A DNA stretch of 64,000 nucleotides from an uncultured Gammaproteobacteria bacterium (GTDB lineage: Bacteria; Patescibacteriota; Microgenomatia; UBA8517). Under the pieces are notes generated by a model. That model made no database searches, had not been told where the DNA came from, and was given only the letters and a program-made list of their open reading frames with translations. How positions within the stretch are numbered: position 1 is the first letter of the stretch; each line of letters opens with the position of its first letter. A program made the position numbers and the translations under genes. Below, piece after piece: positions 60,890 to 61,963 of the stretch. The stretch covers positions 14,111 through 78,110 of the forward strand of contig CAYMZX010000003.1 in the NCBI GenBank assembly GCA_964395115.1. Direction: 5' to 3'.

Positions 60890-61963
60890 TCAGCTTTTAT
60901 GACCGAAGGATGGGGTAAAAGCAAAAGGTATTTCCTCCCAGTCTCGGACCTTCCTTATTTTTAGATTTTTTTCCCAGACGGCATCAAGGATAGTTGTATC
61001 TACCTTGAGGCTTTTTGCCAAGGCCCTAAGGGCGAGAAGGTCTTTTGGAAAACATTTTCCACCAAAGCCGCGCAGGCTGGTTACATCTAGGTGCGACCCC
61101 CCTATCCTTTTATCAAAAGCAACCATTTTTTTGACTTCTTCGTAGTTTATATTTAACTTTTCACAGATATCGTAGATTTCATTGGCAAAGATTACCTTCG
61201 TCGCCAATAAACAATTGGCCATATATTTGACTATTTCAGCGGTTGTCGGATCTGTTTGAAAAATCGGGGTATTGGGCATTATTGACTGGTAGATTGCAGA
61301 AACTTTTCTAAAAATTAAGGAGTTATTTGCTCCAATTATAATCCTATCGGTATTGATAAAGTCTTGCAGAAATGCTCTTTCTGTTAAGAATTCGGGATTG
61401 AAGCAAAAAAGAGTTTTTGGGTACCTTTTGATATAATCCTCGGTTGTTCCCGGGATTACGGTTGATTTAATAATAACTATCTTATCCGTTCCATTTGTAA
61501 ACTTGCTAACTTCAGCGATATTTTTGTCGATTATCGAAAGGTCGATTCCCAATTTGTCTTTTTTGATCGGAGTTGGAAGGCAGATAAAAATATAATCTGA
61601 ATTTTTTATAACTTCCTTAAGGGGATTAAATTCCTTATATTTATCGTAGATGAGAATATTGTTGTTGGAGAAACCATACGCGACAGCTTGACCAACTATT
61701 CCGTAGCCGACTATTCCGATGTTTACTTTTCTTTGAACAACATTACTTGAACCGGGGGTTTTGGAAACAGGAATTATATTTCTGATTGTGCCTTGAGTTT
61801 TATGTAAGTATTCTTCCTTGATAAGACTTTCTATATATTGGTGGATTGTTGGTACCTTCTTTTTAAATTTTTCCGCAATTTCGGCTAAGGTTGGAGAAAA
61901 ACCATTTTTTTCGTAAAACTCTGTTATAAAGTCGAGAATCTGCCTTTGTTTAGGCGTAAGCAT
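60890..61963 (-). CDS. Fusion protein: LexA-type winged-HTH DNA-binding domain + UDP-glucose/GDP-mannose dehydrogenase-family NAD-binding and catalytic domains, lacking the C-terminal UDP-binding domain
   Basis: The N-terminus MLTPKQRQILDFITEFYEKNGFSPTLAEIAEKF resembles the LexA N-domain. A Rossmann block IGIVGYGIVGQAVAYGF follows. The catalytic-Cys motif GGKCFPKD is present. 357 aa total. Confidence 0.7.
   Translation of the reverse strand: MLTPKQRQILDFITEFYEKNGFSPTLAEIAEKFKKKVPTIHQYIESLIKEEYLHKTQGTIRNIIPVSKTPGSSNVVQRKVNIGIVGYGIVGQAVAYGFSNNNILIYDKYKEFNPLKEVIKNSDYIFICLPTPIKKDKLGIDLSIIDKNIAEVSKFTNGTDKIVIIKSTVIPGTTEDYIKRYPKTLFCFNPEFLTERAFLQDFINTDRIIIGANNSLIFRKVSAIYQSIMPNTPIFQTDPTTAEIVKYMANCLLATKVIFANEIYDICEKLNINYEEVKKMVAFDKRIGGSHLDVTSLRGFGGKCFPKDLLALRALAKSLKVDTTILDAVWEKNLKIRKVRDWEEIPFAFTPSFGHKS

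What the first reader, a model, noticed from the sequence alone, without database searches (positions are those of the whole stretch)
60890..61963. LexA-type DNA-binding domain fused to a truncated UDP-glucose/GDP-mannose dehydrogenase
The N-terminal 65 aa look like the LexA wHTH (no S24 peptidase domain). The remainder has the UGDH-family Rossmann and catalytic core including the GGKCFPKD active-site Cys motif, but stops before the C-terminal UDP-binding domain. This could be a metabolite-sensing transcription factor built from an enzyme scaffold, or a DNA-tethered dehydrogenase. It lies convergent to dnaK and upstream of the clpB promoter region.
Basis: seen in the sequence. Interest (0 to 1): 0.6.

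Follow-up and report, generated by a model that had tools for sequence, protein, structure and literature searches.

The report
Self-regulating sugar dehydrogenase with DNA-binding head
A small uncultured (CPR) bacterium has a complete gene that joins a LexA-type DNA-binding domain to a naturally short nucleotide-sugar dehydrogenase, and the gene's own promoter carries a conserved array of 11-bp repeats, so the enzyme most likely represses its own gene.

Summary
ORF 60890-61963 (-) encodes 357 aa: a LexA-type winged helix (aa 2-59), a flexible linker, a compact Rossmann domain and the UGDH central domain with GGKCFPKD. It has no UDP-binding C-terminal domain and no S24 peptidase.

It is not an artefact. 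The same architecture occurs in about 100 protein clusters from Microgenomates (Woesebacteria, Collierbacteria and relatives).

"Truncated" is misleading. The dehydrogenase belongs to a large family of 260-300 aa stand-alone enzymes that never have the C-terminal domain. All six UGDH catalytic residues are invariant in the fusion.

The upstream region has no SOS-type palindrome. It holds two other things:
- A CIRCE (HrcA) operator that belongs to clpB.
- An array of four direct repeats, period 11 bp, core TTAGTA (61962-62005), overlapping the gene's own -10 box and ATG.

Such arrays sit at fixed positions upstream of most fusion orthologues. They are absent from neighbouring genes and from stand-alone dehydrogenase genes, and their core changes with the recognition helix.

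Best reading: a bifunctional, autorepressing "trigger enzyme". DNA binding, enzyme activity, substrate and effector are all inferred, not shown. I rate it a new variant of a known kind, of moderate interest.

The parts
60890..61963 (-). Complete gene for the 357-aa wHTH-dehydrogenase fusion
   Evidence: ORF list. Identical protein P0001 on 3 contigs. Same architecture in 99 of the 120 best clusters.
61787..61960 (-). LexA-type winged helix-turn-helix (aa 2-59). The recognition helix includes PTIHQY.
   Evidence: Pfam PF01726 at 33.8 bits, above the 23.7 cut-off. LexA structures 3k2z and 8s7g at E 1e-5. AF2 model has helices 4-20, 26-32 and 37-49 plus a beta wing at 53-65, with pLDDT 84-92.
61727..61786 (-). 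Variable linker (aa 60-79)
   Evidence: Low pLDDT (57-70) in the model. Length and sequence vary in alignment A1.
61319..61726 (-). Compact NAD-binding Rossmann domain (aa 80-215). Contains GIVGYGIVG, Asp107, KST168 and NPE191FLTE195.
   Evidence: PF03721 matches profile 68-178 only; the first beta-alpha-beta is shortened. Invariant columns in A1.
60965..61243 (-). UGDH central (dimerisation/catalytic) domain (aa 241-333). Contains K246, N250, GGKC304FPKD308.
   Evidence: PF00984 at 89 bits over profile 2-92 of 94. Residue-by-residue alignment to UgdG 4a7p. Invariant in 50 homologues.
60923..60955 (-). Family-specific C-terminal tail (R337...D341-W342-E-E-I345-P346-F347), in the place where canonical UGDH has its UDP-binding domain
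   Evidence: Invariant columns in A1. Stand-alone relatives match the query up to aa 345-350. The model is uncertain here (pLDDT below 50 for 343-357).
61962..62005 (-). Candidate operator. Four direct repeats with 11-bp period (ACTTAAGTAAA | TATTATGTAAA | TAGTTAGTATC | TTATAAGGTAT); the last one overlaps the ATG.
   Evidence: Seen in sequence. A weight matrix built without the window's own units puts the best triple array of the whole window, on both strands, here: score 20.1 against 8.7 +/- 2.9 (max 17.3) in 200 random windows. Orthologues carry the same kind of array at -30/-19/-8/+3.
61989..62017 (-). Sigma-70-like promoter of the fusion gene (TTGACC, 17 nt, TATTAT). The -10 box lies inside repeat 2.
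   Evidence: Promoter scan, 10 of 12 matches. A TTGACA-like -35 box stands at the equivalent place in most orthologous loci.
62028..62054 (+). CIRCE (HrcA operator) overlapping the clpB promoter (TTGACG, 17 nt, TAATAT at 62040-62068). It is a neighbour in the shared spacer, not part of the fusion gene's system.
   Evidence: CIRCE pattern search found 3 hits against 0.02 expected; the other two are at hrcA and groES. Promoter scan.

Best explanation
The gene encodes a bifunctional "trigger enzyme". Its C-terminal 280 residues form a short nucleotide-sugar 6-dehydrogenase of the UGDH family. This part has the NAD-binding Rossmann domain and the central domain, and it would use the Cys-thioester mechanism. 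It lacks the usual UDP-binding third domain.

Its N-terminal LexA-type winged helix hangs on a flexible linker. I propose that it binds an array of three to four direct repeats (11-bp period, core TTAGTA). The array covers the -10 box, the transcription start and the start codon of the protein's own gene, so the protein would shut off its own synthesis.

The dehydrogenase body would provide oligomerisation through the central domain. Four sites spaced one helical turn apart suit two dimers on one face of the DNA. Most likely the body also provides the signal: occupancy by nucleotide sugar or NAD(H) would change how well the heads reach the DNA, as happens in BirA, PutA, NadR or RbkR.

Shown here:
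- the domain architecture and its conservation;
- the intact catalytic set;
- the existence, position, specificity and conservation of the repeat array;
- its covariation with the recognition helix.

Inferred, not shown: DNA binding by this protein, repression, the ligand effect, the substrate, and the oligomeric state.
For: Architecture. The AF2 model has mean pLDDT 80, with a confident winged helix and dehydrogenase joined by a low-confidence linker. Its best PDB fold matches are all UDP-glucose dehydrogenases.

Conservation. Of the 120 best clusters, 99 have the same three domains. Only one 50%-identity cluster among the best 150 representatives carries the winged helix, which points to a single fusion event.

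The enzyme looks intact. T168, E191, K246, N250, C304 and D308 are invariant in 50 homologues. They match the six active-site residues of human UGDH (T131, E161, K220, N224, C276, D280; PMC3129169).

A nucleotide-sugar role for the short family:
- A relative at 49% identity is fused to a sugar-phosphate nucleotidyltransferase. Others are fused to a GT2 glycosyltransferase, an SDR epimerase or APS kinase.
- Stand-alone members have an SDR epimerase/dehydratase in the locus in 75 of 147 loci (directly adjacent in 53), a GT4 in 20 and a DegT aminotransferase in 19.

The operator:
- Self-similarity at lag 11 in the -60..+15 region averages 8.44 for 18 fusion genes. It averages 0.38 for 134 other genes in the same loci and 0.90 for 149 stand-alone dehydrogenase genes. 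No other lag from 7 to 15 exceeds 2.2.
- The units sit at -30/-19/-8/+3 relative to the ATG in most loci.
- A matrix that excludes the window's units picks 61973-62005 as the best site in 64 kb.
- In all 17 other fusion loci scanned, the best site on the gene's strand abuts the fusion gene's start (in L091 it lies on the opposite strand); for L005 and L090 the scores are weak and not convincing.
- The -10 box lies inside the array.

Covariation. Proteins with PT(I/A)HQY go with TTAGTA or TAAGTA cores. Proteins with PTVNTY go with TTAGAT.

Precedent. Alphaproteobacterial LexA binds the direct repeat GTTC-N7-GTTC, which is also an 11-bp period (PMC4951493).
Against: - There is no experimental evidence for DNA binding or for enzyme activity.
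- In canonical UGDH the UMP part of the substrate is held mainly by the missing domain. How, or whether, this short form binds a nucleotide sugar is unknown.
- The closest stand-alone relatives (CPR and DPANN, above 50% identity) and the fusion genes themselves do not sit next to sugar-pathway genes. Only 1 of 17 close relatives and 0 of 14 fusion loci have the SDR.
- Five of 22 fusion loci show a weak direct array or none (L005, L009, L090, L169, L174), and L091 has it inverted.
- Many of the loci are close relatives, so the counts are not independent. The covariation rests on about one or two independent changes.
- A single pair of units scores within the chance range; only the multi-unit array and its conservation are significant.
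- No second target site was found, so a role beyond autoregulation is unsupported.
Confidence: 0.55

Rival explanations
1. Pure transcription factor. The dehydrogenase body has lost catalysis and serves only as a ligand-sensing and dimerising module (for NAD(H), as in Rex, or for a nucleotide sugar). The cell's real dehydrogenase activity, if any, lies elsewhere.
For: The N-terminal winged helix plus Rossmann layout resembles Rex (my own knowledge). The UDP-binding domain is missing. No sugar-pathway neighbours were found in 14 fusion loci. The catalytic Cys loop is poorly modelled, with pLDDT below 50 at 296-304.
Against: All six catalytic residues, including the Cys nucleophile and E191, the counterpart of the proposed thioester-hydrolysis base Glu161, are invariant over 50 homologues at 58-89% identity. 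The dehydrogenase part is more conserved than the DNA-binding part. The same short body occurs as a stand-alone protein in sugar clusters and fused to a nucleotidyltransferase.
Confidence: 0.2
2. The repeat array is not this protein's operator. It would be a promoter or leader feature, or the site of another factor. The winged helix would serve another purpose, such as tethering to the nucleoid, protein contacts, or regulating distant genes only.
For: No binding data exist. The repeats are AT-rich and include the -10 box. Some orthologues lack a clear array. A Fic-family gene in L017 has its own, different 11-bp periodic repeats, so such arrays may be a common promoter style in these bacteria.
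Against: The array is specific to genes that carry the winged helix (8.44 against 0.38 and 0.90). It keeps a fixed register relative to the ATG although the neighbouring genes differ between loci. Its core changes together with the recognition helix.
Confidence: 0.12
3. A LexA substitute. The protein would control a DNA-damage regulon, with the dehydrogenase body taking the place of the self-cleaving S24 domain.
For: The winged helix is LexA-type. In the Collierbacteria-type loci the neighbours include UDG, ThyX, UvrD/AddA-like helicases and RmuC, and recA lies 6 kb away in L005.
Against: There is no S24 domain and no Ala-Gly cleavage site in the linker. No further sites were found beside any of the neighbouring repair genes in the flanks scanned. 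The neighbours are not conserved between clades.
Confidence: 0.03
4. Artefact: two separate genes joined by a sequencing or assembly error.
For: None found.
Against: The ORF is uninterrupted. The identical protein occurs on three independent assemblies. The same fusion was recovered from many unrelated samples, in 99 clusters.
Confidence: 0.01

Closest known systems
UDP-glucose 6-dehydrogenase (UGDH/Ugd; e.g. Sphingomonas UgdG 4a7p, human UGDH)
   Same: Rossmann NAD domain with GxGxxG and an Asp after strand 2. Complete central domain. All six active-site residues, including the Cys nucleophile in GGxCFPKD. Best sequence and fold matches in the PDB.
   Different: No C-terminal UDP-binding domain (PF03720). 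The Rossmann domain is shortened: Pfam profile positions 1-67 are covered by only about 33 residues. There is a family-specific tail, R..DWEEIPF. No solved structure has this short form.
Stand-alone short UGDH-like dehydrogenases (260-300 aa; uncharacterised; annotated as 'UDP-glucose 6-dehydrogenase' or 'nucleotide sugar dehydrogenase')
   Same: They match aa 80-350 of the query at 35-62% identity, with the same compact Rossmann domain and the same tail.
   Different: They have no DNA-binding domain and no 11-bp repeat array upstream. Many sit beside an SDR epimerase/dehydratase, glycosyltransferases or DegT; the fusion genes do not.
LexA
   Same: The N-terminal winged helix belongs to the same Pfam family (PF01726) and matches LexA structures. 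Alphaproteobacterial LexA also reads direct repeats with an 11-bp period, GTTC-N7-GTTC (PMC4951493). The gene appears to control itself, as lexA does (the lexA part is my own knowledge).
   Different: No S24 self-cleaving domain and no cleavage site. No palindromic SOS box. No sign of a DNA-damage regulon.
Trigger enzymes with a fused DNA-binding domain (BirA, PutA, NadR; archaeal riboflavin kinase/regulator RbkR, PMC5397151)
   Same: One polypeptide carries a working metabolic enzyme and a DNA-binding domain, with an operator at its own or its pathway's promoter. This is the same logic proposed here (for RbkR; the others from my own knowledge).
   Different: The enzyme family is different, and the DNA-binding head is LexA-type. 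The operator is a multi-unit direct-repeat array. So far only the protein's own promoter is a candidate target. The effector is unknown.
Rex (redox-sensing repressor)
   Same: An N-terminal winged helix followed by a Rossmann NAD(H)-binding domain that dimerises (my own knowledge).
   Different: Rex has no catalytic residues and binds palindromes. Here the full UGDH catalytic set is retained and the sites are direct repeats.

Membership tests
LexA repressor (TIGR00498) | N-terminal LexA-type winged helix-turn-helix | tested here: met
   PF01726 at 33.8 bits, above the 23.7 cut-off, aa 2-59. LexA PDB chains at E 1e-5.
LexA repressor (TIGR00498) | C-terminal S24 peptidase domain with Ser/Lys dyad and Ala-Gly cleavage site | tested here: not met
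   No Peptidase_S24 hit. TIGR00498 scores 30 bits against a 110.95 cut-off, N-terminal part only. There is no Ala-Gly in the linker.
LexA repressor (TIGR00498) | SOS box at own promoter and at DNA-repair genes | tested here: not met
   No SOS-type palindrome in 61964-62104; the only inverted repeat there is CIRCE. No repeat arrays next to the repair genes in the flanks scanned.
Nucleotide-sugar dehydrogenase (UGDH family, TIGR03026) | NAD-binding Rossmann domain (PF03721) | tested here: met
   73.7 bits, but only profile positions 68-178 of 187 are matched. GIVGYGIVG and D107 are present.
Nucleotide-sugar dehydrogenase (UGDH family, TIGR03026) | Central domain (PF00984) with the catalytic Cys, plus the Thr/Glu/Lys/Asn/Asp active-site set | tested here: met
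   89 bits over profile 2-92 of 94. T168, E191, K246, N250, C304 and D308 are invariant in 50 homologues. They were mapped by motif to the residues listed in PMC3129169.
Nucleotide-sugar dehydrogenase (UGDH family, TIGR03026) | C-terminal UDP/GDP-binding domain (PF03720) | tested here: not met
   No hit. The protein ends 24 residues after the central domain. No separate gene with the FK..DDxRxS signature was found in the window.
Nucleotide-sugar dehydrogenase (UGDH family, TIGR03026) | Score above the curated family cut-off | tested here: met
   191.9 bits against a cut-off of 189.8, so only just, and over profile 71-296 of 413.
Nucleotide-sugar dehydrogenase (UGDH family, TIGR03026) | NAD+-dependent two-fold oxidation of an NDP-hexose | not testable with these tools
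   Needs an enzyme assay.
Trigger enzyme (bifunctional enzyme/regulator; a functional class) | Enzyme and DNA-binding domain in one conserved polypeptide | tested here: met
Trigger enzyme (bifunctional enzyme/regulator; a functional class) | A specific operator at a promoter that it controls | tested here: inconclusive
   A conserved, gene-specific repeat array overlaps the protein's own -10 box and ATG, and it covaries with the recognition helix. Binding has not been shown.
Trigger enzyme (bifunctional enzyme/regulator; a functional class) | DNA binding switched by the enzyme's substrate, product or cofactor | not testable with these tools
   Needs binding assays with and without ligands.

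The most novel reading that the evidence does not exclude
Short two-domain UGDH-like proteins are a working minimal class of nucleotide-sugar dehydrogenases that do without the UDP-binding domain. In Microgenomates one lineage of them has become a self-repressing transcription factor. That factor would read nucleotide-sugar or NAD(H) status through a LexA-type head bound to a multi-unit direct-repeat operator. It would be the first metabolic trigger enzyme, and one of the first regulator/operator pairs, defined for CPR bacteria.
Probability: 0.35. Interest if true: 0.65.

Novelty: new variant of a known kind. Interest (0 to 1): 0.5.

Why it matters
Very little is known about gene regulation in CPR/Patescibacteria, because these bacteria are almost never cultured. 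This finding offers a protein and a precisely predicted operator that can be tested in vitro with synthetic DNA and recombinant protein, with no need for a culture.

It also exposes a large family of UGDH-like enzymes that nobody has characterised (810 representative clusters at E<=1e-30). They lack the domain that normally holds the nucleotide of the substrate. That raises a clear enzymology question: what do they oxidise, and how do they bind it?

If the enzyme's ligand state controls DNA binding, this would add a nucleotide-sugar dehydrogenase to the short list of trigger enzymes.

Tried and rejected
- SOS-like palindrome upstream: rejected. The only inverted repeat in the spacer is CIRCE. 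It overlaps the clpB promoter and recurs at hrcA and groES.
- Functional link to the heat-shock cluster: rejected as a general feature. The dnaK/clpB/dnaJ neighbourhood recurs only in the Woesebacteria-type locus L167; one other locus (L174) merely has an HSP70-family gene upstream. Collierbacteria-type and other loci have different neighbours.
- Missing UDP-binding domain supplied by a separate gene: no signature match in the window and none among the annotated neighbours. Only 64 kb of this genome could be searched.
- SDR partner in the window: none.
- Further operator copies (a regulon): none in the 64-kb window or in the flanks of the 17 other fusion loci scanned. A motif-blind lag-11 scan of the window found otherwise only low-complexity coding stretches.
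- Homology search with the winged helix alone (73 aa): returned nothing, apparently a limit of the word index with short queries.
- Cultured-phage genomes: only distant UGDH matches, at most 39% identity.
- Literature: no paper on this fusion or on short UGDH forms in the searchable library.
- Fold search against the PDB: only full-length UGDHs, no short-form structure.
- Outliers in the control sets were checked. One is the divergent ORF that shares the fusion gene's own spacer (L092). Two are A-rich low-complexity sequence (L022, L084).
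Full report
**1. The observation**

The minus strand of the window carries an intact ORF at exactly 60890-61963 (357 aa, ATG start).

Pfam finds three domains, all above their gathering cut-offs:
- LexA_DNA_bind at aa 2-59 (33.8 bits, cut-off 23.7).
- UDPG_MGDP_dh_N at aa 113-215 (73.7 bits), matching only profile positions 68-178 of 187.
- The UDPG_MGDP_dh central domain at aa 241-333 (89 bits, profile 2-92 of 94).

There is no hit to the C-terminal UDP-binding domain or to Peptidase_S24.

NCBIfam agrees. The nucleotide-sugar dehydrogenase model TIGR03026 is only just passed (191.9 bits against 189.8), over profile positions 71-296 of 413. 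The lexA equivalog matches only its first 67 positions, far below its cut-off.

Sequence search of the PDB gives UDP-glucose dehydrogenases (best 4a7p, 3e-33, aa 114-333) and LexA (3k2z and 8s7g, 1e-5, aa 2-68/77).

So is its description of the layout. The gene is convergent with dnaK, with one base between the stop codons. It is divergent from clpB across a 141-bp spacer.

**2. It is a real, conserved gene**

The identical protein is on three independent assemblies.

Of the 120 best 90%-identity clusters in the protein collection, 99 have the same three Pfam domains at 352-367 aa. Most of the rest (336-347 aa) still have a recognisably homologous N-terminal helix-turn-helix in the alignment.

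Sources name the organisms Woesebacteria, Collierbacteria, Pacebacteria/Paceibacterota and "Patescibacteria group". The window is thus from a Microgenomates-type CPR bacterium; the nearest named relative is a Woesebacteria protein at 81% identity.

In an exhaustive search of 1.84 billion representatives, only one 50%-identity cluster (P0054) among the best 150 matches the query from residue 2. This fits a single fusion event.

**3. The dehydrogenase is not truncated; it belongs to a natural short family**

In the same exhaustive search, nearly all other top hits are proteins of 255-300 aa that match aa 80-350 of the query end to end. There are 810 representatives with E<=1e-30.

In 160 loci fetched from genomes and metagenomes these are complete ORFs of about 270-295 aa on long contigs. 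They come from DPANN archaea (Woesearchaeota, Nanoarchaeota), other Microgenomates (Daviesbacteria, Woesebacteria), Marinimicrobia, SAR86, Flavobacteriales, Dehalococcoidia, and marine contigs whose neighbouring genes look phage-like.

The family shares two features:
- A compact Rossmann domain, in which the segment between strand 2 and the "CLPTP" strand is deleted.
- A conserved tail (R337, D341, W342, I345, P346, F347 are invariant in the fusion clade) where canonical enzymes begin their third domain.

No solved structure has this form. Fold search of the AF2 model (mean pLDDT 80) returns only full-length UGDHs.

**4. Is it still an enzyme, and of what?**

In an alignment of 50 fusion homologues (58-89% identity to the query), T168, E191 (and E195), K246, N250, C304 and D308 are invariant. 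So are the NAD-binding glycines and D107. These correspond by motif to the six active-site residues of human UGDH: Thr131, Glu161, Lys220, Asn224, Cys276, Asp280 (PMC3129169).

The dehydrogenase part is more conserved than the DNA-binding part. This pattern argues for retained catalysis.

The link to nucleotide sugars comes from relatives:
- A member at 49% identity is fused to a sugar-phosphate nucleotidyltransferase. Others are fused to a GT2 glycosyltransferase, an SDR epimerase/dehydratase or APS kinase.
- Of 147 stand-alone loci, 75 contain an SDR epimerase/dehydratase (directly adjacent in 53), 20 a GT4 glycosyltransferase and 19 a DegT aminotransferase.

Two caveats apply. In canonical UGDH the UMP moiety is anchored mainly by the domain that is missing here. 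And the closest stand-alone relatives (CPR/DPANN, above 50% identity), like the fusion genes themselves, are not next to sugar genes: 1 of 17 and 0 of 14 loci have the SDR. Their neighbours are housekeeping genes and, repeatedly, a Nudix hydrolase.

The substrate is therefore an inference (an NDP-hexose), not a result.

**5. The upstream region**

The only inverted repeat in the spacer is CTAGCACTT-N9-GAGTGCTAA (62028-62054), a CIRCE element. It overlaps a TTGACG-17-TAATAT promoter that faces clpB. Two further CIRCE copies in the window precede hrcA (57735-57761) and groES-groEL (26141-26167). That makes 3 hits against 0.02 expected.

Between that element and the fusion gene's ATG lies something else. 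Read towards the gene, there are four direct repeats with an 11-bp period: ACTTAAGTAAA | TATTATGTAAA | TAGTTAGTATC | TTATAAGGTAT (62005 down to 61962). The last one contains the first two bases of the ATG.

A TTGACC-17-TATTAT promoter on the gene's strand has its -10 box inside the second repeat.

**6. The array is conserved, specific, and tracks the protein**

Most orthologous fusion loci I could fetch have the same kind of array although their neighbouring genes differ. Examples are TATTAGTAATT|TATTAGCAATA|TGTTAGGTATA in a Collierbacteria-type locus and CATAAGTATTA|TGTTAGTATTA|CATAAGTATTA|TGTCAGTAAGT in a Woesebacteria locus.

A motif-blind measure counts 6-mers that recur, with at most one mismatch, 11 bp downstream within -60..+15:

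| Gene set | n | Mean at lag 11 |
|---|---|---|
| Fusion genes | 18 | 8.44 |
| Other genes in the same loci | 134 | 0.38 |
| Stand-alone short-dehydrogenase genes | 149 | 0.90 |

For the fusion genes, no other lag from 7 to 15 exceeds 2.2. The few high-scoring controls are the divergent ORF that shares the same spacer, or low-complexity A-runs.

The units occupy -30, -19, -8 and +3 relative to the ATG in most loci. In the window they are shifted by 9 bp because its N-terminus is three residues shorter.

A weight matrix built only from other loci picks 61973-62005 as the best three-unit array in the whole 64-kb window on both strands. It scores 20.1, against 8.7 +/- 2.9 (maximum 17.3) in 200 first-order Markov random windows.

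In 14 of the 17 other loci scanned, the best array on the gene's strand directly abuts the fusion gene; the exceptions are L091 (strong array on the opposite strand) and L005 and L090 (weak, unconvincing scores). No comparably scoring second site away from the promoter appears in their flanks or in the window.

The repeat core changes with the recognition helix. Proteins with PT(I/A)HQY go with TTAGTA or TAAGTA. Proteins with PTVNTY go with TTAGAT.

Limits:
- Five of 22 loci have a weak direct array or none (L005, L009, L090, L169, L174), and L091 has it inverted.
- Many loci are close relatives, so the counts are not independent.
- The covariation rests on one or two independent changes.

**7. 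Mechanism proposed**

The most economical reading is a trigger enzyme: a working dehydrogenase whose N-terminal LexA-type heads, on roughly 20-residue flexible linkers (pLDDT 57-70), bind the repeat array. This would block both RNA polymerase (the -10 box and start site) and initiation at the ATG of its own gene.

Four sites spaced one helical turn apart suit two dimers on one face of the DNA. The central domain, which forms the dimer interface in UGDHs, is complete.

Direct-repeat reading at an 11-bp period has a precedent within the LexA family itself: GTTC-N7-GTTC in Alphaproteobacteria (PMC4951493).

Ligand control of DNA binding (substrate, product or NAD(H)) is expected by analogy with BirA, PutA, NadR and the archaeal RbkR (PMC5397151). 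It is entirely inferred.

I put 0.55 on this model. The rivals get:
- 0.2 for a pure sensor/regulator that has lost catalysis.
- 0.12 for the array not being this protein's site.
- 0.03 for a LexA-like damage regulator.
- 0.01 for an artefact.

**8. Comparison with known systems**

It works like a trigger enzyme and like an autoregulated repressor.

It is not a LexA. The S24 domain, the cleavage site and the SOS box were tested and are absent.

It is a member of the UGDH superfamily by two of three domains and by the full catalytic set. It fails the third-domain criterion and only just passes the curated family threshold.

Databases label it "hypothetical protein", "helix-turn-helix domain-containing protein" or "nucleotide sugar dehydrogenase". 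I found no paper on the fusion or on the short family in the searchable library.

**9. Verdict**

It is a new variant of a known kind (an enzyme/regulator fusion), with a concrete, testable operator prediction, and it raises an open enzymological question about the short UGDH-like family. Interest is moderate (0.5). It is not categorically new, but it is a rare, directly testable regulator/operator pair for CPR bacteria.

Noticed in passing
window 26141-26167, 57735-57761, 62028-62054: Three CIRCE (HrcA operator) elements lie in front of groES-groEL, hrcA-grpE-dnaK and clpB(-dnaJ). That is 3 hits against 0.02 expected by chance, so the window shows a compact HrcA heat-shock regulon.
   Followed up: partly
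window 60886-60892: The stop codons of dnaK (+) and of the fusion gene (-) are separated by a single base. No terminator-like structure lies between the two convergent genes.
   Followed up: no
proteins P0136, P0187, P0199, P0229 (relatives found): Several short dehydrogenases carry an intein with a LAGLIDADG homing endonuclease, inserted exactly at GGK|C...HN|CFPKD. The catalytic cysteine is therefore the +1 extein residue.
   Followed up: partly
L017:1-1100 (Daviesbacteria): A Fic-family gene (347 aa) has its own array of 11-bp periodic direct repeats with a different core (CGTCTA), ending at its ATG. Such promoter-proximal arrays may be a recurring operator style in Microgenomates.
   Followed up: partly
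L103-L166 (marine metagenome loci): Many stand-alone short dehydrogenase genes lie in an apparently phage-like context: a PD-(D/E)XK nuclease, small zinc-ribbon-like proteins, and a 235-aa protein with no Pfam hit. They are usually next to an SDR epimerase/dehydratase. Cultured-phage genomes hold only distant relatives.
   Followed up: partly
L167:6148-6840; L017:5539-5943; also L021, L093, L094: A Nudix hydrolase gene lies directly beside both a fusion gene (there with a weak HTH_45 hit) and several of the closest stand-alone dehydrogenase genes. This may hint at shared nucleoside-diphosphate-sugar metabolism.
   Followed up: no
L004:6698-7102, L168:2168-2644, L169:3047-3508: A TspO/MBR family gene recurs within a few genes of the fusion gene in three otherwise different neighbourhoods.
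   Followed up: no
L007, L008, L010, L013 and other loci: Several MAGs whose record titles say 'uncultured Gammaproteobacteria' or 'Pseudomonadales' carry genes typical of Microgenomates/CPR. L007 is 81% identical to the query, the same level as the named Woesebacteria protein P0004. The titles look like mislabelled taxonomy.
   Followed up: no
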